Below are positions 37,604 to 48,402 of a stretch of DNA of 64,000 nucleotides, in pieces. The position numbers were made by a program, and so were the translations under genes. The DNA lies in contig SKHG01000036.1 in the NCBI GenBank assembly GCA_007117035.1, positions 7,595 through 71,594 on the forward strand, read 5' to 3'. This DNA is from Candidatus Campbellbacteria bacterium (GTDB taxonomy: Bacteria > Patescibacteriota > Minisyncoccia > Phycocordibacterales > CSBR16-193). Under the pieces are notes generated by a model. That model had not been told where the DNA came from. It searched no databases and saw nothing but the letters and a program-made list of their open reading frames with translations. Numbering within the stretch: the stretch's first letter is position 1; every line of letters begins with the position of its first letter.

Positions 37604-40600
37604 ATGCGTCAATACGATCATAAAAGAGTTGAGAAAAAATGGCAAAAAAGCTGGCAGAAAAGTAATCTATACAAGACTAAGGAAAGTAAAAAGAAAAAGT
37701 TTTACTGCTTAGATATGTTCCCTTATCCTTCAGGTGAAGGTCTGCACGTAGGTCACCCTAAAGGATATATTGCTACTGATATTATTTCTAGATACAAACG
37801 TATGACCGGTCATGATGTCTTACACCCAATGGGATGGGATGCATTCGGTCTACCAGCTGAAAATTATGCAATTAAGAACAAGATACATCCTGAAATGGCT
37901 GTAAAAAATAACGTAAAAAGATTTAAAAATCAGGTCTCAATTTTAGGTTTTGACTACGATTGGTCTCGCGAGATAAACACAACAGACCCAGAGTATTACA
38001 AATGGACTCAGTGGACATTTTTGCAGATGTACAAAAAAGGTTTAGCTTACGAATCAAATGAGCCTATTAATTGGTGTCCAAGTTGTAAAACTGGTTTAGC
38101 TAACGAGGATCTGGAGGATGGTAAATGTGAGAGGTGTAACTCTGAGATAGAACAACGTCCTATTCGTCAGTGGGTTCTTTCAATTACTAAGTATGCAGAC
38201 CGGTTGCTGAAAGACCTTAGTGGTCTTGATTGGCCAGAACATATTAAAGAACTACAAAGAAACTGGATTGGTCGATCTGAGGGATCTTTTATAAACTTTC
38301 AAGTAGGGGAAAAACTTCATTTTATCTTATTACATGGATACAAAGGTTCACCTCAAAAGAATTTTTTCCCGTGGTTAAAACTAGAGTTGGAAAAACAAGG
38401 TCACACTGTCGAAGTCCCTAAATTACCTAAAGCTGATAACCCCGATGTTTTAAAACAGGCTGAGTTTGTTTTGGATAATTGTAGATTAAACAAAGACACA
38501 GTTATTTTAGGACACAGTCATGGTGGATCAGTAGCTATGAAGGTTGTTGAGTCATTGAAAACTCCAATCAAGAGGCTTGTCCTGGCGGCTTCGTTTTTGG
38601 AGCCGAAAAGAAAGTATCAGACTGATTTTAATTGGCAGTATAATTTTGAAAAAATTAAAAAAAATTCTCAAAGAGTTACTGTTTTAAAAAGTCTTAAAGA
38701 CAGTGTTGTTCCTCCATCTGAGTCTGATAAAATTTCGGAAGTAACAAGTGGTGATTTGGTTATTATTAATCCTGAAGAAAACCATATTTGTGGTAAGGTG
38801 GAACCTAAAATTTTTAACGAACTTTCAACGGAGATTAAGATTTTTACAACACGTCCTGACACGATATTTGGTGCCACATACCTTGTTTTATCACCAGAAC
38901 ATTCTATGTTGAAAAGTTTGTGGGATAGAATAAAAAATAAAAAAGAAGTTCAGGTATATATAGACCAAGCTAGAAAAAAAACAGAGCTACAACGCACAAC
39001 CGAGGCAAAAGAAAAAACTGGTGTAGAATTAAAGGGAATCTTTGCTGTAAATCCAGCTACTAAGAAGCAAATACCTGTTTGGATTGCCGATTATGTTCTG
39101 ATTGGATATGGAACAGGAGCTATTATGGCTGTTCCAGCTCACGACGAACGTGATTTTGAGTTTGCTAATAAATTTAAATTACCTGTAAAAAAAGTGATTG
39201 AACCAAAGTTTACTGCTCTCTCAGGTGATGATGCAGTCCGTAAGGGTTTAGACTTTATTAAAAGAGAAGCTGTGTGTGCTGTTGTAAGAGATCCTAAAAC
39301 TGATAAATATTTATGTATCAGCTGGAAGGGAATTAATATGAATGGTTTGGTAACTGGTGGACTTGATGATGGAGAAGATTTGGTGGATGCTGGCCGTCGT
39401 GAAGTCTTTGAGGAAACTGGATATAAAAACTTAAAATTAATTAATGATCCTGATATTGCAATCCATAGTCTCTTTTATCATCGAGTTAAAAAAGTTAACA
39501 GGTGGGCCAGATTTCGTTATGTATTTTTTGAATTAGAAGATTACAGTAGAGAAGATGTGGACGATGTTGAAGCTTCATTACATGAAGTTGTTTGGAAGAG
39601 TAAGGAAGAAATGTCTAACTTTTTTTCGGTTGTTGAGGGTAGGTTTCTATTGAAGATTCTGGAGAATTCAGAAAATATTTATTTAAACGACGGTGTTTTA
39701 ATAAATTCTGGAGAGTTTACAAACCTAGACTCAGAAACAGCTCGAAAGATAATAGTTGAGAAGATTAAGGGGGAATTTACTGTTACTTATAGGCTGAAAG
39801 ATTGGGTGTTTTCTAGACAGAGATATTGGGGTGAACCAATACCATTGGTCCATTGTGAAAAATGTGGCGTTGTTCCTGTACCAGAGAATGATCTACCTGT
39901 TAAGTTGCCAAAGGTTAAAGACTATGAGCCTACCGGTACAGGTGAGTCACCTCTAGCTAATATCTCTTCTTGGGTAAATACAAACTGTCCAAAATGTAAC
40001 GGACAGGCACGTCGTGAGACTAATACTATGCCACAGTGGGCTGGTTCGTCTTGGTATTATTTGCGATACATTGATCCTGAAAACAAAAAAAGTTTAGTGT
40101 CATTAAAAAAAGAAAATCGGTGGATGCCTGTAGATGTTTATGTTGGTGGAGTTGAACACGCTACTCGTCATTTAATATACGCTAGATTTTGGCATAAGTT
40201 TTTGTATGATATTAAATCTGTTAGTACACTTGAACCGTTCCAGAAACTTAAGAGTCAAGGAATGATAAGTGGTCCAGATGGTCGAAAGATGAGTAAACGT
40301 TTTGGTAATGTAATTAATCCAGACACGGTGGTCTCTAATTACGGGGCTGATTCATTGCGTCTTTATGAAATGTTTATGGGACCTTTTGAGCAAGGTGGTT
40401 CCTGGAGTGATAAAAACATTATGGGTGTTAGAAGGTTCTTGGAAAGAGTGTGGAAGATATCTGATAAGATTAGTAAAAGTGCAGTTACTGAGGAGGCTGA
40501 CGAAGTTTTACTAAACAAAACGATTAAACAGGTAACCAAATCCATAGAAGATTTTTCCTTCAATACAGTGATATCTGATTTAATGATTTTGTCCAACAGA

Positions 40601-40957
40601 TTCTGGGACAAAGAAAGTATTAAGTTAAAGGAGTATGAGTCCTTATTGATACTTTTGGCTCCATTCGCACCACATATTACAGAGGAGCTTTGGCAGATGA
40701 TTGGTAAGAAGAAAAGCATTCATGTTGCTAAATGGCCAAGCTTCAACCCAGATAAATTGAAGGATAAAAATGTTAGTATTGTGATTCAAGTTAACGGAAA
40801 AGTTCGCGCAAAAATAGTAGTCGAACAGGGTTCTCAAAAAGGAGAAATACTTGAAAAGGTTAAAAATTTACCAGAGATATTAAAATGGATTCCTACTGAA
40901 AATTTAATTAAAAAGGAAATTTTTATCCCTGATCGATTAATTAATTTTGTAATTTAG
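37604..40957 (+). CDS. leuS: leucyl-tRNA synthetase (bacterial type), 1117 aa, with two inserted hydrolase domains: alpha/beta serine hydrolase at ~38315-38840 and Nudix at ~39200-39690
   Basis: HIGH region (PYPSGEGLHVGH), zinc knuckle CPSCKT...CERC, CP1 editing TTRPDT, AHDERDFEF, VLINSGEF, RLKDWVFSRQRYWGEPIP and KMSKR all in LeuRS order; extra domains described in findings. Confidence 0.9.
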   Translation: MRQYDHKRVEKKWQKSWQKSNLYKTKESKKKKFYCLDMFPYPSGEGLHVGHPKGYIATDIISRYKRMTGHDVLHPMGWDAFGLPAENYAIKNKIHPEMAVKNNVKRFKNQVSILGFDYDWSREINTTDPEYYKWTQWTFLQMYKKGLAYESNEPINWCPSCKTGLANEDLEDGKCERCNSEIEQRPIRQWVLSITKYADRLLKDLSGLDWPEHIKELQRNWIGRSEGSFINFQVGEKLHFILLHGYKGSPQKNFFPWLKLELEKQGHTVEVPKLPKADNPDVLKQAEFVLDNCRLNKDTVILGHSHGGSVAMKVVESLKTPIKRLVLAASFLEPKRKYQTDFNWQYNFEKIKKNSQRVTVLKSLKDSVVPPSESDKISEVTSGDLVIINPEENHICGKVEPKIFNELSTEIKIFTTRPDTIFGATYLVLSPEHSMLKSLWDRIKNKKEVQVYIDQARKKTELQRTTEAKEKTGVELKGIFAVNPATKKQIPVWIADYVLIGYGTGAIMAVPAHDERDFEFANKFKLPVKKVIEPKFTALSGDDAVRKGLDFIKREAVCAVVRDPKTDKYLCISWKGINMNGLVTGGLDDGEDLVDAGRREVFEETGYKNLKLINDPDIAIHSLFYHRVKKVNRWARFRYVFFELEDYSREDVDDVEASLHEVVWKSKEEMSNFFSVVEGRFLLKILENSENIYLNDGVLINSGEFTNLDSETARKIIVEKIKGEFTVTYRLKDWVFSRQRYWGEPIPLVHCEKCGVVPVPENDLPVKLPKVKDYEPTGTGESPLANISSWVNTNCPKCNGQARRETNTMPQWAGSSWYYLRYIDPENKKSLVSLKKENRWMPVDVYVGGVEHATRHLIYARFWHKFLYDIKSVSTLEPFQKLKSQGMISGPDGRKMSKRFGNVINPDTVVSNYGADSLRLYEMFMGPFEQGGSWSDKNIMGVRRFLERVWKISDKISKSAVTEEADEVLLNKTIKQVTKSIEDFSFNTVISDLMILSNRFWDKESIKLKEYESLLILLAPFAPHITEELWQMIGKKKSIHVAKWPSFNPDKLKDKNVSIVIQVNGKVRAKIVVEQGSQKGEILEKVKNLPEILKWIPTENLIKKEIFIPDRLINFVI

Positions 40958-41038: not shown

Positions 41039-42121
41039 ATGCCAACAAAAAATAAAACAAAAAGTCAGGTAAAGGTGAGTGGTCAGCAGATGGCTATTAT
41101 TGCCTTTAAACCAAAAAAAGTTACCAAAGATTTGCTTTCTGTTCTTTCAGACAAAGCAAGGGATATTATAATTGCACGTTACGGTTTAGGTACTACTGTT
41201 AAAAAAGAGACTCTAGAATTAATTGGTAAAAAATACGGAATTACAAGAGAGAGGGTTCGTCAAATCGAAAACCACTCCCTAGAGTATATTCGTCGTTCTG
41301 AAGTGACTCTTAAAAATAGTAATATATTTGATGAGATTAAAGATGTTATTAAGAAACTTGGAGGAATGGTATCTGAAAAGGATCTTTTGAATAGTATCTC
41401 TAATAAATCTGATATTCAAAACCATATTCATTTTCTCTTAGTTATTGGTGATTACTTTATAAAAAGACGGGAAGACCAAGATTTTCACCATAGATGGCAT
41501 ATAGATGAAGATCTTTCTGGCCAGATTCATATTTCACTACAAAATTTATACCAAAGTCTGTCTGATGATGACTTAATCTCAGAACCTGATATGATTAAGT
41601 TGTTTTTAGAGGATCTAAAAGGTGTCTCAGAAGAATATCGTCAAGATGAAATTGTTCGTAGATGGCTTTCTTTGTCAAAAAAACTTGGAAAGAATCCTTT
41701 GGGTGAATGGGGAAAATCACAGTCGCCAAATGTTAAGGCAAAAGGTATTCGTGACTATGCTTTCTTGATAATGAGAAAACACGGAACACCAATTCATTTT
41801 AGAGATATTGCTAAATCAATCGAAAAAGTTTTTAACAAAAAAGCTCACGTTGCTACTACACACAATGAGTTGATTAAGGACCCAAGGTTTATTTTGGTGG
41901 GCCGAGGTCTTTATGCATTAAATGAATGGGGTTTTTCTGGTGGAGTGGTTAAGGATGTTATCCGTGATGTTTTATTAGAACATGGTCCACTTACAAAAAA
42001 AGAGATTATTGAAATTGTTTTGAAGAAAAGATTTGTAAAAGAAAACACTGTATTAGTTAACCTCCAAAATCCTGCTTATTTCCGTAAGGACAAGCAAGGG
42101 AAATATTCTGTGGTACAATAG
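41039..42121 (+). CDS. DNA-binding protein with N-terminal sigma-70 region-4-like HTH and C-terminal HARE-HTH-like winged helix
   Basis: ITRERVRQIE (sigma r4 recognition-helix signature); C-terminal GRGLYALNEWGF resembles the HARE-HTH of RNA polymerase delta/restriction-system proteins. Confidence 0.5.
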   Translation: MPTKNKTKSQVKVSGQQMAIIAFKPKKVTKDLLSVLSDKARDIIIARYGLGTTVKKETLELIGKKYGITRERVRQIENHSLEYIRRSEVTLKNSNIFDEIKDVIKKLGGMVSEKDLLNSISNKSDIQNHIHFLLVIGDYFIKRREDQDFHHRWHIDEDLSGQIHISLQNLYQSLSDDDLISEPDMIKLFLEDLKGVSEEYRQDEIVRRWLSLSKKLGKNPLGEWGKSQSPNVKAKGIRDYAFLIMRKHGTPIHFRDIAKSIEKVFNKKAHVATTHNELIKDPRFILVGRGLYALNEWGFSGGVVKDVIRDVLLEHGPLTKKEIIEIVLKKRFVKENTVLVNLQNPAYFRKDKQGKYSVVQ

Positions 42122-42141
42122 GAGGTGTAAGAAATTACACC

Positions 42142-43380
42142 ATGATCGAAAGTTTTTTAATTGAAAAATTTGGCGAAGGAGCTATTTTAGCTTATCAAGT
42201 GTTTTATATTTTATTGGCTATTTTAGTTCCTTCAATGTTACTTTTTTTTGCGTGGCGTTTTCGTCTAGCTTATTTAAAAAATGTTTTTTTTCGTAAAGAA
42301 GGTTGGACGCTTTTAGAGATACATATCCCAGAAGAAATAAAGAAGACTCCTCAGGCTATGGAAATGGTTTTGGAGTCTATGAATGTTGGTAGTGGAGAAA
42401 GTAACTTTATTATGCGTCTGTGGCACGGTATGACACGTCCTTGGTTTTCTCTAGAAATAGTTTCGTTTGAAGGACGAATAAGTTTTTTTATATGGACTCG
42501 AAAGCGTTGGAAAGCAGGTGTTGTTGCGGCAATCTATTCACAGTACCCCACAGTTGAGATTAACGAAGTTGATGACTACACCAAACAACTACCGACTGAT
42601 TTAGAAAAATATATCGTCTGGGGTTCAGAGATGGATCTTAAAAAGCCAGATCCTTATCCAATAAAGACATACAAGTATTATGAAATGGATAAAGATCAAG
42701 ATGAAGACCTGCAACCAAAGACAGACCCGTTGAGTTCTTTTATAGAAGCGCTTGGAAGCATTGGTCCGGGTGAGTATTTCTGTTTTCAGATTATAATAAG
42801 GAAACATAAAAAAGAAAAAAAGGTACAAGGTAGTTTGTTTAAAAAACAGAGCTGGCGTGAGGAAGGAAAAGAGATTGTTAAAAAATTAAAGACTGGTGAT
42901 CAGGTTAAGTCTGTTGGTGAGGATAATCAACCGATTATTATGCTTTCTAATATGGAACGAAGTTTTATTGAATCAATGGAAAGAAACCTCAGTAAACACG
43001 CTTTTGATTGTGGAATGAGAATTTTGTACATTACTGAAAAAAATTCCTTTGATGTGACTAGGCTTTCTACCATTCCTGGAGCATTAGGGCAGTTTGGAGA
43101 TGAAATACATAATTCTTTTGATAAAGCTCGAGGGCATGATCCTATGAACTGGTTTTGGCAGGATGTTGATAGAATACGAGGAGCAAGAATATCTAAAAGA
43201 ATATTTGATGCCTATAGATTTCGTGCATATTTTCATATGCCATACATATCTCCGCACTTTACGTTAAGCGCTGAAGAAGTGGCGTCTGTATTTCATTTTC
43301 CTGGAAAAGTGGTCACAACTCCAACTTTTGAGAGAATACGATCTAAAAAAGCTGAGGCTCCTGTAAACATTCCTCAGTAG
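42142..43380 (+). CDS. hypothetical membrane-anchored protein (412 aa)
   Basis: GGAGG RBS 8 nt upstream; N-terminal TM; likely co-transcribed with 41039..42121 (20-nt gap). Confidence 0.5.
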   Translation: MIESFLIEKFGEGAILAYQVFYILLAILVPSMLLFFAWRFRLAYLKNVFFRKEGWTLLEIHIPEEIKKTPQAMEMVLESMNVGSGESNFIMRLWHGMTRPWFSLEIVSFEGRISFFIWTRKRWKAGVVAAIYSQYPTVEINEVDDYTKQLPTDLEKYIVWGSEMDLKKPDPYPIKTYKYYEMDKDQDEDLQPKTDPLSSFIEALGSIGPGEYFCFQIIIRKHKKEKKVQGSLFKKQSWREEGKEIVKKLKTGDQVKSVGEDNQPIIMLSNMERSFIESMERNLSKHAFDCGMRILYITEKNSFDVTRLSTIPGALGQFGDEIHNSFDKARGHDPMNWFWQDVDRIRGARISKRIFDAYRFRAYFHMPYISPHFTLSAEEVASVFHFPGKVVTTPTFERIRSKKAEAPVNIPQ

Positions 43381-43384
43381 GTAA

Positions 43385-44362
43385 TTGTTCAGTATGTATA
43401 AATTAAAAGAGAAGATTAAATTAATTTTAACCGTTGTTATAGTATTTGTTACGCTTACTGTATTAGGAACAGTTATTTTTTTAATTTTTTCTTTACCACC
43501 AAAAGATTTTCCTTCAGACACTCTGATTACGATTGAAAAAGGTGACACATTGTCTGATATTTCAGAGAAACTTCATAATGAAGGTTATATTAAATCACAG
43601 TTAATTTTTAGGAACCTTGTGATTTTGATGAAAGGTGAGCGTTCAATCAATGCTGGTGACTATTATTTTTCAGGACCTGAATCTGTATTCTCAGTATCAT
43701 TTCGTTTTAGTTCTGCTCGTCATGGTTTAGACCCTGTAAGAGTTATAATTTTTGAGGGTTGGAACATTTTTCGGATTGCTGAGGAACTCGACAGAAATTT
43801 TGATAATATAAAATTTGACGAAGTAATAGAATTTGGTAGAGAAGGATATCTTTTTCCTGACACATATTTTATAACGCCAAACATTGATTCATTAAGAATG
43901 GTTGAGTTAATGGAAAGAAACTTCCAAAATAGAATTGAACCGCTACTGGACGAAATCGAAAACTCACCTCGTACTCTTGAAGAAATTTTGATTATGGCTT
44001 CAATTTTGGAGACTGAAGCAAACACAGTTGAGTCAAAGAGAAAGATAGCAGATATTTTGTGGAAGAGATTTGATATTGGTATGCCACTACAAGTTGATGC
44101 ATCATTTTCATACGTTAATAATAAAAATACTTATCAACTAACACTAGATGATCTAAAAATTGAACACCCGTACAACACTTATCGTAATGTTGGTTTGCCA
44201 CCGACCCCGATTTCAAATCCTGGACTGGATTCTATAAAAGCTGCAATCGACCCAATAGAGAATGATTATTGGTACTTCCTTTCAGATCTTTCGGGTAATA
44301 TGTACTACGCTCGAGATTTTGATGAACATCAATACAACAGAGTTAACTTTCTAAGGCAATAG
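43385..44362 (+). CDS. mltG: endolytic murein transglycosylase MltG (YceG-like)
   Basis: N-terminal TM, LysM-like segment, conserved YceG catalytic region. Confidence 0.7.
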   Translation: MFSMYKLKEKIKLILTVVIVFVTLTVLGTVIFLIFSLPPKDFPSDTLITIEKGDTLSDISEKLHNEGYIKSQLIFRNLVILMKGERSINAGDYYFSGPESVFSVSFRFSSARHGLDPVRVIIFEGWNIFRIAEELDRNFDNIKFDEVIEFGREGYLFPDTYFITPNIDSLRMVELMERNFQNRIEPLLDEIENSPRTLEEILIMASILETEANTVESKRKIADILWKRFDIGMPLQVDASFSYVNNKNTYQLTLDDLKIEHPYNTYRNVGLPPTPISNPGLDSIKAAIDPIENDYWYFLSDLSGNMYYARDFDEHQYNRVNFLRQ

Positions 44363-44381
44363 ATTTTTTTGATAGGTTTTT

Positions 44382-45467
44382 ATGGTGGATACAGATAAAA
44401 AAAAGGTTTGGGTTGCAATGTCTGGTGGTGTTGATTCTTCAGTTACAGCATGGTTGTTGCAAAAAAAAGGTTATGATGTAACCGGTGCTTTTATTGAAAC
44501 ATGGCAACCTGATTTTATTGAATGTACAGCTAGGGACGACCGAAGAGATGCGATGAGAGTTGCGAGTGAACTTGGAATTGAACTAAAAGTTGTTGATTGT
44601 CGTCAGGAGTACAAAAAAAATGTAGTAGATTATATGGTAGAAGAGTATCGTCGAGGGAGAGTACCTAATCCAGATGTGATGTGTAATAGCTATGTTAAAT
44701 TCGGCGCTTTTTTTGAAAGAGCTATGTATGAAGGAGCTGGTATGGTTGCAACTGGGCACTATGTTCAGAATAATGAGAATGAAAAAAAAGAGTTTTTTTT
44801 AAGTAGGGGAGTTGATCGTGAAAAAGACCAAAGTTATTTTCTTTGGAACATACCCTCAAAAATTTTACCGAGTTTGCTTTTTCCGGTTGGTGGATTTAAT
44901 AAAAATGAAATACGTCAAATAGCTAAAGAGGCAGGTCTTTCAAATGCTGGAAAAAAAGATAGTCAGGGAATATGTTTTTTGGGTAAGACTGATTTAAAAA
45001 AGTTTCTTTCACACTATATTAAACCTAAGACCGGAGATGTTTTAGATGAGTCTGGTGAGTTAATTGGTAAACACCAAGGTGTCTGGTTTTATACCATAGG
45101 TGAGCGTAGAGGTTTTGAGGTATCAAAAAAAACTCCTTCTAGTGGACCCTTCTATATCTTAGATAAGGATTTAGAAAATAACACCTTGACTGTAACAGAA
45201 AATAAAAAAAATCTTTCTTTGTCTCAAAAGGTGTCAGCTAGTAACTGTAATTGGTTTCTGCCTATAGAAGAAGGTTGTGAGTATGATTTACAAGTTAGAT
45301 ATCGAGAAAGAACTTATCGAGCAGTTCTTGCAGAAAAAAATACAGAAAATTTTATTTTTGAATTCACTACAGAAAGACCGCAATTAGTTCCTGGGCAGTC
45401 ACTCGTTGTTTATGATCGAGAGGTTTGTGTTGGAGGAGGTGTTATAGATAATAAGTTACCTTTGTAG
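44382..45467 (+). CDS. mnmA: tRNA-specific 2-thiouridylase MnmA
   Basis: PP-loop VAMSGGVDSSV; catalytic cysteines; C-terminal beta-barrel. Confidence 0.85.
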   Translation: MVDTDKKKVWVAMSGGVDSSVTAWLLQKKGYDVTGAFIETWQPDFIECTARDDRRDAMRVASELGIELKVVDCRQEYKKNVVDYMVEEYRRGRVPNPDVMCNSYVKFGAFFERAMYEGAGMVATGHYVQNNENEKKEFFLSRGVDREKDQSYFLWNIPSKILPSLLFPVGGFNKNEIRQIAKEAGLSNAGKKDSQGICFLGKTDLKKFLSHYIKPKTGDVLDESGELIGKHQGVWFYTIGERRGFEVSKKTPSSGPFYILDKDLENNTLTVTENKKNLSLSQKVSASNCNWFLPIEEGCEYDLQVRYRERTYRAVLAEKNTENFIFEFTTERPQLVPGQSLVVYDREVCVGGGVIDNKLPL

Positions 45468-45510: not shown

Positions 45511-46359
45511 ATGAATAAATTTAGTAATATAGATGTAATAAAGGCAAGTGGTCTAGTTGAGGAATTTAAAATTGAAAAACTTGAGAATTCTTTAAGAAAC
45601 TCAGGTGCATCAGAGAGTGACATATCTGAGGTTGTTGAGGATATTGAAGGGATTTTACGACCAAGGATCAGTACTCGTGAAATTTATCGTGAAGCGTATA
45701 GGTTTTTAAGAGAAAGACATAAAAATACTGCGTATAACTACTCCTTGCGTGGAGCAGTTATTGATCTCGGGCCAACAGGTTATCCCTTCGAGGATTTAGT
45801 TGCTGGTGTTTTAAGGACTATTGGGTACAAGACTGAGGTTCGTTTAATGATGTCTGGAAAATGCATATCACATGAGGTTGATGTCTACGCATATAAGGAA
45901 AATTCACCAGAAGCATTTATTGTTGAAGCAAAGTTTCATAATGATCAAGGTACTAGAAGCGGTCTACAAGACAGTTTATCGGCTAAAGCTCGTTTTGATG
46001 ATGTGTCTGGTGGAGACCATCATAATTTTTCAGGATATTTACCAAAACAAATGTGGTTGGTAACTAACACTAAGTTTAGTCACACAGCACTTGAGTATGG
46101 AAAATGTGCTGGATTAAAAATGATTGGCTGGAACTATCCTAAAGTTGGAAATCTGCAAAATCTTATAGAAGAAAATAAACTACATCCGATTACTGCACTT
46201 AATACATTAAGTAATTCTCAAAAACAAAATATTCTCAAAAAAGGTGTGGTGTTCTGTCGCGACCTTAAGAAAAACTTTGGTCTTTTTGAGGAGTATGGAA
46301 TTCATAAAACAAAACAGAAAGATGTTTATGAGGAGTTAGAAAAAATAACTGGAATTTAG
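45511..46359 (+). CDS. ATP-cone domain fused to Mrr-like (PD-(D/E)xK) restriction endonuclease domain
   Basis: N-terminal ~90 aa with NrdR-like ATP-cone pattern; HEVDVYAY...IVEAKF gives a D...ExK catalytic core. Confidence 0.55.
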   Translation: MNKFSNIDVIKASGLVEEFKIEKLENSLRNSGASESDISEVVEDIEGILRPRISTREIYREAYRFLRERHKNTAYNYSLRGAVIDLGPTGYPFEDLVAGVLRTIGYKTEVRLMMSGKCISHEVDVYAYKENSPEAFIVEAKFHNDQGTRSGLQDSLSAKARFDDVSGGDHHNFSGYLPKQMWLVTNTKFSHTALEYGKCAGLKMIGWNYPKVGNLQNLIEENKLHPITALNTLSNSQKQNILKKGVVFCRDLKKNFGLFEEYGIHKTKQKDVYEELEKITGI

Positions 46360-47174: not shown

Positions 47175-47819
47175 ATGTTGGAAAACAATCAACAGCTTCT
47201 AGAGCATCTTATACACAACACTCGAGTAGTCGAGGAGTCTTCTAACCTTGCAAAAGCTTTTAGTTTAATTAATCGTCGATATTTTGTTCCGCCAGATTAT
47301 GAAGCTGAGGCATACGAAGACTATTCCTTACCAATCGGTAACGGGCAGACTATTTCTCAACCTACAACAGTAGGTTTAATGCTTTCGTTGTTGGATCCCA
47401 GAAAAGGGGAAAGAGTGCTTGATGTTGGTTTTGGATCTGGATGGACATCTGCCATATTAGGAGCTTCGGTTGGCAAAGAAGGTGAGGTTGTTGGAATTGA
47501 TGTCTTTGATGATTTTTTGGAGGCTGGACCAGTTCATCTTGAGAAATATAAGGATAAAGTAGCACCAACATTTTTTTACTCAGCCAGTGATAAGAAAAAT
47601 ATATTTAGCAGGTCATACGACAAAATCTTAATCAACGCATCGGTGGTAAACGAGGTACCCAAAGAATTTAAGAAAGCCTTAAAAGAAGGTGGTATGTTGG
47701 TCGCTCCGATTGATGATAAGTTATGCCTTTTTCGACTTCAAAATAAAAAGCTGAAGCAAGAAAAGTGTCTTGAAGGATTTTCTTTTGTGCCATATATTTA
47801 TGAACAACCTCAAAAATAG
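47175..47819 (+). CDS. pcm: protein-L-isoaspartate O-methyltransferase
   Basis: GQTISQP motif and VLDVGFGSGW SAM motif. Confidence 0.8.
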   Translation: MLENNQQLLEHLIHNTRVVEESSNLAKAFSLINRRYFVPPDYEAEAYEDYSLPIGNGQTISQPTTVGLMLSLLDPRKGERVLDVGFGSGWTSAILGASVGKEGEVVGIDVFDDFLEAGPVHLEKYKDKVAPTFFYSASDKKNIFSRSYDKILINASVVNEVPKEFKKALKEGGMLVAPIDDKLCLFRLQNKKLKQEKCLEGFSFVPYIYEQPQK

Positions 47820-48402
47820 AGAAAGAAAGTTGAAACAGATTGAGAAAGAAGTTATAGCACTGAACAGTTCTCCTTTATGTTGTGAGCGAATTTTGTCTGG
47901 ATCTAAGCCTGTTATAGGTGAAGGTTCTGTGATGTCCGAGATCATGTTTATTGGAGAAGCTCCAGGAAAAAAGGAAGCACTGACCGGAAGACCTTTTTGC
48001 GGATCAGCTGGTCGTGTTCTTGATGAGCTACTGAGCTATATTAATATCTCGCGAGATGATGTTTATATTACAAACATCGTTAAAGACCGACCAGAAAACA
48101 ATCGAGACCCATCACCAGAGGAGATAGTCATGTACGCTCCTTTTTTAGATCGACAGATTGAGATTATCCAGCCACGAATAATAGTAACCCTTGGTCGTTT
48201 TTCAATGGATTATATCCTGAAAAGATTTTGTAATGAAATTTCAATACCAAGTATTGGAGAAGCACATGGTCGAAAATATATAACCAAGCTTTCCTATGGA
48301 GAGGTTGTGATTGTTCCTTTATATCATCCAGCAGCATCAATATATAACCAAAAACTCAAAAAAACCCTACTTAGAGATATAAAAATATTAAAGAAAATGT
48401 AA
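47770..48402 (+). CDS. uracil-DNA glycosylase family 4 (likely start at ATG 47800)
   Basis: GEAPGKKEA...GRPFCGSAG motif A of family-4 UDG; C-terminal HPAA motif. Confidence 0.75.
   Translation: MKDFLLCHIFMNNLKNRERKLKQIEKEVIALNSSPLCCERILSGSKPVIGEGSVMSEIMFIGEAPGKKEALTGRPFCGSAGRVLDELLSYINISRDDVYITNIVKDRPENNRDPSPEEIVMYAPFLDRQIEIIQPRIIVTLGRFSMDYILKRFCNEISIPSIGEAHGRKYITKLSYGEVVIVPLYHPAASIYNQKLKKTLLRDIKILKKM

What the first reader, a model, noticed from the sequence alone, without database searches (positions are those of the whole stretch)
45511..46359. ATP-cone regulatory domain fused to an Mrr-type PD-(D/E)xK endonuclease
The N-terminal ~90 aa follow the ATP-cone pattern (seen in NrdR and RNR allosteric domains). 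The C-terminal half has an Mrr-like restriction endonuclease core, HEVDVYAY...IVEAKF (D...ExK) (sequence-derived; family knowledge).

An ATP-cone would make nuclease activity responsive to (d)ATP levels, as in NrdR-style allostery. One possibility is a nucleotide-pool-sensing defence or DNA-degradation nuclease; this is inference.

It is a standalone gene with no adjacent methyltransferase.
Basis: partly seen in the sequence, partly recalled or inferred. Interest (0 to 1): 0.5.

Follow-up and report, generated by a model that had tools for sequence, protein, structure and literature searches.

The report
ATP-cone-gated nuclease, uncharacterised widespread family
The gene is real and encodes a three-part protein (an ATP/dATP-sensing ATP-cone, a DNA-cutting PD-(D/E)xK core and a helix-hairpin-helix tail) from a large, already catalogued but never tested family, and its genomic setting looks like housekeeping nucleic-acid recycling or repair, not anti-phage restriction.

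Summary
ORF 45511..46359 (+, 282 aa) carries three domains:
- an N-terminal ATP-cone;
- a PD-(D/E)xK nuclease core with invariant E94, D124, E139 and K141;

It is an ordinary member of a big family, with more than 3,200 homologues in Patescibacteria, Bacteroidota, Chlamydiota, Archaeoglobi and DPANN archaea. NCBI already names its members 'ATP cone domain-containing protein' or 'restriction endonuclease'. The nuclease half was solved in 2004 as AF1548 (PDB 1Y88). That structure came from an N-terminally truncated ORF and so hid the ATP-cone.

'Mrr-type' holds only in the broad Pfam sense. The two signatures that define Mrr proper (an extra Asp in motif II, and Q-x-K) are not met.

The defence reading is not supported:
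- the gene is absent from phage and viral collections;
- it has no methyltransferase or defence neighbours;
- its composition is native;
- in Patescibacteria it sits in a conserved slot after mnmA;
- its tree follows phylum.

In the Bacteroidota/Chlamydiota sister clade it frequently heads an operon with a beta-CASP nuclease, an AMP/thymidine-phosphorylase-family enzyme and PRPP synthetase. My best reading is an adenine-nucleotide-gated endonuclease for nucleic-acid recycling, with DNA repair as the main rival. No family member has been tested biochemically.

The parts
45511..46359 (+). Complete ORF (282 aa plus stop): ATP-cone, PD-(D/E)xK nuclease, HhH-like C-terminal domain
   Evidence: ORF list and sequence. 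Identical protein P0001 sits on a 114-kb ENA contig. 3,267 homologues found. AF2 model pLDDT 89.1.
45535..45741 (+). ATP-cone domain (aa 9-77). Predicted site-1 ligand residues: K11, E17, F19, K23, L24, T55, I58, Y59.
45739..45792 (+). Conserved linker and motif I: Y77-S78-L-R/K...L86-G-P-x-G-x-P-F-E94 (motif I Glu at 45790-45792)
   Evidence: Invariant columns in A1. E94 is invariant in 76/76 sequences. The F-E motif I matches the definition in PMC2790908. This segment is missing from the 1Y88 construct.
45778..46107 (+). PD-(D/E)xK nuclease core (aa 90-199): H121-E122-x-D124 (D at 45880-45882), E139-x-K141 (45925-45933), R161, D164, T185-N-T-K-F
46186..46347 (+). C-terminal AF1548-like helical domain (aa 226-279), (HhH)2/SAM-like, probably a nucleic-acid backbone-binding module

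Best explanation
The gene encodes a chromosomal, vertically inherited, single-polypeptide endonuclease whose activity is set by the adenine-nucleotide pool.

**Proposed mechanism.**
- The N-terminal ATP-cone binds ATP and/or dATP at a conserved site 1. This is inferred from conserved ligand residues.
- As in every studied ATP-cone protein (RNRs, NrdR), nucleotide identity would change oligomeric state or domain packing (inferred by analogy).
- That change would switch the classical E...D...ExK metal-dependent nuclease core on or off. The active site is shown to be intact; activity is inferred.
- The C-terminal HhH-like domain would hold the nucleic-acid backbone without sequence specificity (inferred).

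**Proposed role.** I think the most likely role is the first, gated step of the cell's own or imported nucleic-acid breakdown for nucleotide and pentose recycling. The products would pass to exonucleases, nucleotide phosphorylases and PRPP synthesis. It is not restriction of foreign DNA.

The polarity of regulation (ATP versus dATP; on or off) and the substrate (DNA or RNA) are unknown.
For: **Architecture and residues.**
- The three domains are confirmed.
- The catalytic residues are invariant in 76 sequences across two phyla.
- ATP-cone site-1 residues are conserved: K11 75/76, K23 75/76, T55 75/76, Y59 74/76, F19 73/76, E17 61/76. They are in register with E. coli NrdA K9, K21, T55, H59, I17 and E15, whose roles in binding adenine, ribose and phosphates are known (PMC11447812).
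- The architecture is fixed at about 260-290 aa in bacteria and archaea.

**Operon evidence in the sister clade.**
- In RefSeq plasmids of Pontibacter and Criblamydia the homologue heads a tight four-gene operon: ATP-cone nuclease, MBL/beta-CASP nuclease, thymidine/AMP-phosphorylase family, ribose-phosphate diphosphokinase.
- The same order is seen in L044, and partial versions in L048, L076, L079 and L089.
- In an independent metagenome sample, 28 of 60 loci have the beta-CASP gene just downstream. Eight of 40 have all three partners.

**Other nucleotide-metabolism hints.**
- An HD 5'-deoxynucleotidase (YfbR-like) lies downstream (+1/+2) of the gene in 6 Patescibacteria loci.
- Patescibacteria/CPR and DPANN, where the family is common, are reported to rely on nucleotide salvage through an AMP-phosphorylase/RuBisCO route (PMC5113843, PMC6389311; abstracts).

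**Non-defence evidence.**
Against: - The operon association is seen only in the Bacteroidota/Chlamydiota clade, which is about 38-42% identical to the window protein. None of 59 Patescibacteria-type loci, 4 archaeal loci or the window itself has these partners within the DNA fetched.
- In Patescibacteria the variable downstream neighbours are mostly DNA-repair genes: UDG, Cas4-like PDDEXK_1, DinB, Ogt. That favours the repair rival.
- The window protein's ATP-cone HMM score is just under Pfam's cut-off.
- The phosphate-binding Arg of NrdA (R10) is Ala, Gly or Asn in the bacterial clades.
- No member of the family has any published biochemistry that I could find.
- Gene neighbourhood is circumstantial, and synteny within one phylum is not a set of independent observations.
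Confidence: 0.45

Rival explanations
1. It is a DNA-repair or maintenance endonuclease. The ATP-cone licenses incision only when the adenylate/dNTP supply can support repair synthesis. The HhH domain binds duplex DNA, and the core cuts damaged or branched DNA.
For: - Among 100 genes at +1/+2 in Patescibacteria loci: UDG 13, Cas4-like PDDEXK_1 12, Y-family polymerase (IMS) 4, Ogt 2, HD 5'-deoxynucleotidase 6.
- UDG is present in 22/59 loci, and in the window at 47770..48402.
- Some sources name archaeal members 'Holliday junction resolvase', and two carry weak Hjc hits.
Against: - Repair neighbours are seen only within Patescibacteria, where gene order is inherited as a block from leuS to alaS. 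They may therefore not be functional partners.
- Bacteroidota, Chlamydiota and archaeal contexts contain no recurrent repair genes.
- Geoglobus has a separate Hjc gene 2 kb away.
- The query has no Hjc match.
Confidence: 0.25
2. It is a stand-alone (Type IV-like) restriction or abortive-infection nuclease. It would attack foreign or modified DNA, or the cell's own DNA, when phage infection perturbs ATP/dATP pools.
For: - The Mrr_cat HMM matches above threshold.
- The fold is close to the Type IV enzymes AspBHI and MspJI and to the ligand-gated defence nucleases Can2, Card1 and NucC.
- There are weak PADLOC matches: PDC-S02 in 13/22 members (best 1e-5, partial) and ZorD in 3/22.
- A sensor domain fused to a PD-(D/E)xK core is a common defence design (family knowledge).
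Against: - No match in 50,697 phage records or in IMG/VR. Only domain-level structural matches in BFVD.
- Only 2 of 72,556 plasmids carry it, and both sit in a metabolic operon.
- mnmA lies directly upstream in 40 of 55 Patescibacteria loci, at only 38-49% protein identity.
- GC content equals the flanks.
- Bacteroidota sequences form a single clade.
- No methyltransferase or known defence gene recurs among 176 neighbours scanned.
- The Mrr-specific motifs are absent.
- The PADLOC hits cover only about 60 profile positions of 334.
Confidence: 0.08
3. It is an RNA (tRNA/rRNA) processing or decay endonuclease, controlled by ATP level and acting with translation-related genes.
For: - It is constantly adjacent to mnmA and embedded between leuS and alaS in Patescibacteria.
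- The partner in the sister clade is a beta-CASP enzyme with the RNA-specificity RMMBL domain, related to aCPSF1.
- AMP-phosphorylase-type partners act on ribonucleotides (family knowledge).
- This rival overlaps the best explanation if the recycled polymer is RNA.
Against: - HhH modules and this PD-(D/E)xK subgroup (NucS, Type IIS/IV enzymes) are typically DNA-directed.
- The adjacency to mnmA is restricted to one phylum.
Confidence: 0.12

Closest known systems
AF1548 of Archaeoglobus fulgidus (PDB 1Y88, structural genomics, 'protein of unknown function')
   Different: The crystallised ORF is N-terminally truncated: it starts at 'VARLL'. It therefore lacks the ATP-cone and the motif-I Glu. 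A full-length version (P0269, 265 aa), 99% identical to AF1548, begins with a canonical ATP-cone 'VRKRDGRLEEF'. No function has been determined.
NrdR and the ATP-cones of ribonucleotide reductases (NrdA, NrdB, NrdD)
   Different: The output domain here is a nuclease, not a Zn-ribbon DNA binder or a reductase. The NrdA R10 equivalent is lost in the bacterial clades, and H59 is replaced by an invariant Tyr. Nucleotide binding is untested.
Mrr / LlaGI-type (Mrr-family) and MspJI/AspBHI Type IV restriction nucleases
   Different: It lacks the Mrr-defining extra Asp (D-G-x-x-D) and has E-x-K instead of Q-x-K. It has no DNA-modification reader domain, and it is not in a mobile or defence context.
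Ligand-gated PD-(D/E)xK nucleases of defence systems (Can2/Card1, NucC)
   Different: The sensor is an ATP-cone reading bulk ATP/dATP, not a CARF domain or allosteric pocket reading cyclic oligoadenylates. There is no CRISPR or CBASS neighbourhood.
NucS/EndoMS
   Different: No NucS N-terminal DNA-binding domain. Only 17% identity. Different domain partners.

Membership tests
ATP-cone (PF03477) | Match to the Pfam model at or above its gathering score | tested here: inconclusive
   The window protein scores 23.5 bits against a 25.8-bit cut-off, E=8e-5. All 22 aligned homologues match at E<=1e-3, best 3.6e-9. Most homologues carry a precomputed PF03477 hit.
ATP-cone (PF03477) | Fold: beta-hairpin plus four-helix bundle superimposable on RNR/NrdR cones | tested here: met
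ATP-cone (PF03477) | Conserved site-1 nucleotide-contacting residues (NrdA K9, R10, E15, K21, I22, T55, I58, H59) | tested here: met
   hhalign register, conservation counts and residue roles. Seven of eight positions are conserved or conservatively replaced (H59 to Tyr). The R10 equivalent is Ala in this protein.
ATP-cone (PF03477) | Binds ATP/dATP and changes oligomeric state | not testable with these tools
   Needs binding and hydrodynamic experiments.
PD-(D/E)xK nuclease superfamily | Core fold with motif I Glu, motif II Asp and motif III (D/E)-x-K | tested here: met
Mrr family in the strict sense (Mrr, LlaGI-type) | Pfam Mrr_cat match above the gathering score | tested here: met
   26.3 bits against 21. 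20/22 homologues match.
Mrr family in the strict sense (Mrr, LlaGI-type) | Supplementary, 100% conserved Asp four residues N-terminal to the catalytic Asp, linked by a Gly (PMC2790908) | tested here: not met
   Position 120 is variable (S/E/G/A/P/K). The family instead has an invariant H121-E122-x-D124.
Mrr family in the strict sense (Mrr, LlaGI-type) | [quoted passage not shown] | tested here: not met
   E139-A-K141, with the Glu invariant in 76/76.
Mrr family in the strict sense (Mrr, LlaGI-type) | Modification-dependent DNA cleavage | not testable with these tools
   Biochemical property.
AF1548 family (1Y88; PF22357 C-terminal domain) | Sequence and structural homology across the nuclease and C-terminal domains | tested here: met
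Restriction-modification / anti-phage defence system | Cognate methyltransferase or other defence genes adjacent; defence-island or mobile-element context | tested here: not met
   No methyltransferase or defence gene within +/-8 kb. None recurs among 176 neighbour proteins. No phage or IMG/VR occurrence. Synteny is conserved.
Restriction-modification / anti-phage defence system | Full-length match to a known defence protein model (PADLOC) | tested here: not met
   Only partial, weak hits: PDC-S02 at 20.3 bits covering profile positions 173-235 of 334; ZorD in 3/22 members.
Hjc Holliday-junction resolvase (PF01870) | Match to the Hjc model | tested here: not met
   No Hjc hit for the query at E<=1. 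Only 2 of 120 archaeal relatives carry a precomputed hit.
NrdR | N-terminal Zn-ribbon DNA-binding domain before the ATP-cone | tested here: not met
   The ATP-cone starts at residue 9. There is no Zn-ribbon and no NCBIfam match.

The most novel reading that the evidence does not exclude
This family would be a third functional class of ATP-cone proteins, after ribonucleotide reductases and NrdR. It would be an adenylate/dATP-sensing gatekeeper nuclease that couples the cell's nucleotide status to the breakdown of its own or imported nucleic acid. The products would feed a beta-CASP exonuclease, NMP/nucleoside phosphorylase and PRPP route. In genome-reduced Patescibacteria and DPANN archaea it would be a core part of how they live on scavenged nucleic acids.
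Probability: 0.35. Interest if true: 0.7.

Novelty: new member of a known kind. Interest (0 to 1): 0.45.

Why it matters
ATP-cones are discussed in the literature I could search almost only as regulators of ribonucleotide reductase activity and of NrdR. A conserved, catalytically intact nuclease under ATP-cone control would extend that allosteric switch to nucleic-acid degradation.

The family is fixed in architecture across Patescibacteria, Bacteroidota, Chlamydiota and several archaeal lineages. It would give a testable link between nucleotide or energy status and nucleic-acid turnover, in organisms that depend on nucleotide scavenging.

Two practical points follow:
- The only solved structure of the family (1Y88) represents a truncated ORF, so a full-length structure with nucleotides is needed.
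- Culturable carriers with the four-gene operon (e.g. Pontibacter actiniarum) make the hypothesis directly testable.

For genome annotation, the name 'restriction endonuclease' is probably misleading for this family.

Tried and rejected
- **NCBIfam:** no model matches the protein.
- **Foldseek afdb50:** the library was not available.
- **Aravind, Wolf & Koonin 2000 (ATP-cone paper):** could not be read. From memory alone I cannot say whether it already lists this fusion.
- **Literature searches:** terms covered ATP-cone with endonuclease, nuclease or Mrr, plus AF1548 and 1Y88. They found only two 2007 papers predicting AF1548's catalytic residues, and nothing on the fusion.
- **Promoter and terminator scan around the gene:** no more sites than in shuffled sequence.
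- **Composition:** no sign of recent transfer.
- **Second copy:** none in the window.
- **Bacteroidota neighbourhoods, apart from the operon:** heterogeneous metabolic and transport genes.
- **Archaeal neighbourhoods:** no recurrent partner.
- **Holliday-junction resolvase replacement:** rejected, because there is no Hjc match and a separate Hjc gene sits next to the Geoglobus homologue.
- **NrdR-like repressor:** rejected, because there is no Zn-ribbon and the nuclease active site is invariant.

Full report
**1. The observation**

The ORF 45511..46359 on the + strand (ATG start, 282 aa) is real, and it is the only long ORF there. An identical protein is on record from a 114-kb ENA metagenome contig.

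Pfam results for the window protein:

| Model | Score (bits) | Cut-off (bits) | Residues |
|---|---|---|---|
| Mrr_cat | 26.3 | 21 | 90-199 |
| ATP-cone | 23.5 (E=8e-5) | 25.8 | 9-77 |
| AF1548-like_C | 18.9 | 23.9 | 226-279 |

The two sub-threshold calls are secured independently:
- All 22 aligned homologues match the ATP-cone model (best 3.6e-9), and 10 match AF1548-like_C.
- An AlphaFold model built on that alignment is confident (pLDDT 89.1, pTM 0.73).

**2. Conserved residues**

I compared 76 sequences from Patescibacteria and Bacteroidota, at 38-58% identity to the window protein. The nuclease residues E94, H121, E122, D124, E139, K141, R161, D164 and T185-N186-T187 are invariant. D124, E139 and K141 correspond to the D38/E51/K53 predicted for AF1548 in two 2007 papers.

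A profile-to-sequence alignment with genuine E. coli NrdA (sequence fetched; alignment) puts the ATP-cone residues in register:

| Window protein | E. coli NrdA |
|---|---|
| K11 | K9 |
| E17 | E15 |
| F19 | I17 |
| K23 | K21 |
| L24 | I22 |
| T55 | T55 |
| I58 | I58 |
| Y59 | H59 |

In NrdA these residues bind the adenine (E15), pack the base (I17, I22, I58), contact the ribose 3'-OH (H59) and neutralise the phosphates (K9, K21) (PMC11447812). They are conserved in 61-75 of the 76 sequences. One difference is that NrdA R10 is Ala here, although it is Arg in the archaeal relatives. The sensor therefore looks functional, but binding is not shown.

**3. How large and how old the family is**

- The word-indexed search gave 3,267 homologues. 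Nearly all are 270-295 aa with the same precomputed domains.
- The exhaustive search of 50%-identity representatives gave 1,089 clusters, 388 of them at E<=1e-30. The top 150 are essentially all full-length.
They lie in Patescibacteria and, as a distinct group, in Bacteroidota plus Balneolota.
- Searching with the AF1548 sequence showed the same three-domain, 260-280-aa architecture in Archaeoglobi, Nanoarchaeota, Aenigmatarchaeota and Hadesarchaea.
- Sources already name members 'ATP cone domain-containing protein', 'Restriction endonuclease/ATP cone domain', 'restriction endonuclease', 'ATPase', or sometimes 'Holliday junction resolvase'.

A by-product concerns the crystallised AF1548. It starts at 'VARLL', inside the first nuclease helix. 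A 99%-identical full-length protein (P0269, 265 aa) begins with a canonical ATP-cone, 'VRKRDGRLEEF'. The only solved structure of the family is therefore of a truncated ORF, and the ATP-cone was invisible to the papers that analysed it.

**4. Is it 'Mrr-type'?**

It is only in the broad sense of the Pfam model. Smith et al. define the Mrr family by three features (PMC2790908):
- an F-E motif I;
- a 100%-conserved extra Asp four residues before the catalytic Asp, linked by Gly;
- Q-x-K in motif III.

The family here has the F-E motif. However, position 120 is variable, the motif before the catalytic Asp is an invariant H-E-x-D, and motif III is a classical E-x-K. Two defining features are tested and not met. 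I therefore file it as a classical PD-(D/E)xK enzyme of the AF1548 family, near the Hjc/NucS/Mrr subgroup, and not as an Mrr-family member.

**5. Is it a defence gene?**

The evidence is against it.
- There is no DNA methyltransferase or defence gene within +/-8 kb of the window gene. Its neighbours are LeuRS, a sigma-70-like protein, DUF8128, YceG/MltG, MnmA, then the gene, then DUF7282, PCMT and UDG.
- The same block is conserved across Patescibacteria whose proteins are only 38-49% identical. MnmA lies directly upstream on the same strand in 40 of 55 loci with enough sequence. YceG is present in 43/59 loci, DUF8128 in 40/59 and the sigma-like gene in 34/59.
- The GC content of the gene equals that of its flanks.
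- In a neighbour-joining tree (midpoint rooted, no bootstrap), the 21 Bacteroidota-type sequences form one pure clade.
- There is no match in 50,697 phage records and none in IMG/VR. BFVD gives only domain-level structural matches.
- Only 2 of 72,556 plasmids carry it.
- PADLOC gives only weak, partial hits.
- Caveat: the phage and plasmid collections are poor in Patescibacteria hosts.

**6. What the neighbours suggest**

Two themes emerge from the neighbourhoods.

*(a) Patescibacteria.* The upstream side is fixed and the downstream side varies. Among 100 genes at +1/+2, the recurrent families are UDG (13), MgtC (12), a Cas4-like PDDEXK_1 nuclease (12), an HD 5'-deoxynucleotidase of the YfbR type (6), Y-family polymerase (4) and Ogt (2). 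This is a DNA-repair and nucleotide-hygiene flavour. However, these loci are related by descent.

*(b) The sister clade.* The two RefSeq plasmid hits are from Pontibacter actiniarum (Bacteroidota) and Criblamydia sequanensis (Chlamydiota). In both, the homologue is the first gene of a tight operon with overlapping stops and starts:
1. ATP-cone nuclease.
2. MBL-fold beta-CASP nuclease. It is related to the catalytic part of aCPSF1 and to Cas14, below their cut-offs.
3. A 'thymidine phosphorylase family' protein of about 500 aa. It scores above cut-off for TIGR02645 and PRK04350, and 480 bits against the AMP-phosphorylase model (cut-off 535).
4. Ribose-phosphate diphosphokinase of the PRK07199 subfamily.

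The same four genes occur in L044, and partial sets occur in L048, L076, L079 and L089.

I tested this association on an independent sample of 80 metagenome loci of the same clade:
- Of 60 loci with at least 1.4 kb downstream, 28 have the beta-CASP gene downstream on the same strand, usually within 0-340 nt.
- Of 40 loci with at least 4.5 kb downstream, 20 have the beta-CASP gene, 10 the phosphorylase, 9 the PRPP synthetase, and 8 all three.

The trio also exists without the nuclease. In Bradyrhizobium diazoefficiens it is induced at transcript and protein level under microoxia (bll3115-3117; PMC6515984). None of these partners is present in the Patescibacteria loci, the archaeal loci or the window.

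**7. Most likely mechanism**

- *Shown:* a three-domain protein with an intact metal-dependent nuclease site and a conserved adenine-nucleotide pocket.
- *Inferred by analogy with RNRs and NrdR:* ATP/dATP binding alters oligomerisation or domain packing and thereby gates the nuclease (PMC9110341, PMC5794259, PMC11447812).
- *Inferred from fold:* the HhH-like tail gives sequence-independent binding to the nucleic-acid backbone.
- *Inferred from the operon in the sister clade, and from the reported dependence of CPR and DPANN organisms on nucleotide salvage (PMC5113843, PMC6389311):* the enzyme starts the breakdown of nucleic acid for nucleotide and pentose recycling.

I give this overall reading 0.45. 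The molecular part (a nucleotide-gated nuclease) is more likely than that, and the biological role is less certain. The rivals:

| Rival | Confidence | Note |
|---|---|---|
| DNA-repair nuclease licensed by nucleotide supply | 0.25 | Best supported by the Patescibacteria neighbours |
| RNA-directed decay or processing enzyme | 0.12 | Overlaps the main reading if RNA is the substrate |

The polarity of control and the substrate are unknown.

**8. Comparison with what is known, and novelty**

The window gene is a typical member of a family that databases already recognise and name, and whose nuclease half has a deposited structure. The finding as written is therefore a new member of a known kind.

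Some things I did not find in the searchable literature:
- any experimental work on the family;
- any mention that AF1548 is really an ATP-cone fusion;
- any description of the operon link to a beta-CASP nuclease, a phosphorylase and PRPP synthetase.

I could not read the original ATP-cone paper, so the fusion may have been listed there.

Interest is moderate at 0.45. The gene itself is ordinary for its lineage, and the defence idea fails. The family as a whole is an untested, widespread candidate for extending ATP-cone allostery to nucleic-acid degradation, and culturable carriers make it directly testable.

Noticed in passing
PDB 1Y88 versus P0269; corresponds to window aa 1-94 (45511-45792): The crystallised AF1548 construct starts at 'VARLL', inside the first nuclease helix. 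A 99%-identical full-length protein (265 aa) has a canonical ATP-cone and the motif-I Glu upstream. The only solved structure of this family is therefore from a mis-called, truncated ORF.
   Followed up: partly
L099:1972-6597 (Pontibacter plasmid NZ_CP021236.1), L098:6001-10608 (Criblamydia plasmid NZ_LK031773.1), L044:5980-10636: A four-gene operon: ATP-cone nuclease, beta-CASP MBL nuclease, thymidine/AMP-phosphorylase-family protein, ribose-phosphate diphosphokinase. The last three also occur alone as bll3115-3117 in Bradyrhizobium, where they are induced by microoxia (PMC6515984). I found no functional study of this module.
   Followed up: partly
window 37604..40957 (+): The leucyl-tRNA synthetase (1117 aa) carries a NUDIX domain hit (PF00293) within it, per the precomputed Pfam hits. 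The same hit appears in the LeuRS genes of related Patescibacteria loci L007 and L009.
   Followed up: no
window 41039..45467 and loci L005-L012: A deeply conserved Patescibacteria gene string: leuS, sigma70_r4/HARE-HTH protein, DUF8128, YceG/MltG, mnmA, then the nuclease, often ending near alaS. DUF8128 is always wedged between the sigma-like gene and mltG.
   Followed up: partly
L014 and 11 other Patescibacteria loci (+1 gene); L094:3958-5001; L098:1-1845; Bacteroidota cluster c10: Ion-transport genes recur next to family members in different phyla. MgtC is found in 12 Patescibacteria loci. CorA abuts the gene in Ferroglobus. P-type ATPases lie near it in Bacteroidota and Criblamydia. A link between Mg2+ and ATP is conceivable but unexplained.
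   Followed up: no
window 47175..47819 and 47770..48402 (+): The PCMT (protein isoaspartyl methyltransferase) ORF and the family-4 UDG ORF overlap by about 30-50 nt, depending on the UDG start. In related loci, Ogt, PCMT and UDG form a variable repair cluster downstream of the nuclease.
   Followed up: no
L061 versus L056: The MAG labelled 'uncultured Citrobacter sp.' (L061) has the same gene order and ORF lengths around the homologue as the Terrimonas ferruginea MAG (L056). Several loci labelled 'Gammaproteobacteria' or 'Saccharibacteria' group with Patescibacteria-type sequences. The taxon labels of these bins look unreliable.
   Followed up: no
L015:7984-8769 and 15 other Patescibacteria loci: A 261-aa PDDEXK_1 (Cas4/AddB-like) nuclease with a C-terminal Cys cluster lies 1-3 genes downstream of the ATP-cone nuclease in 16 loci. 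This places a second PD-(D/E)xK nuclease in the same neighbourhood.
   Followed up: no
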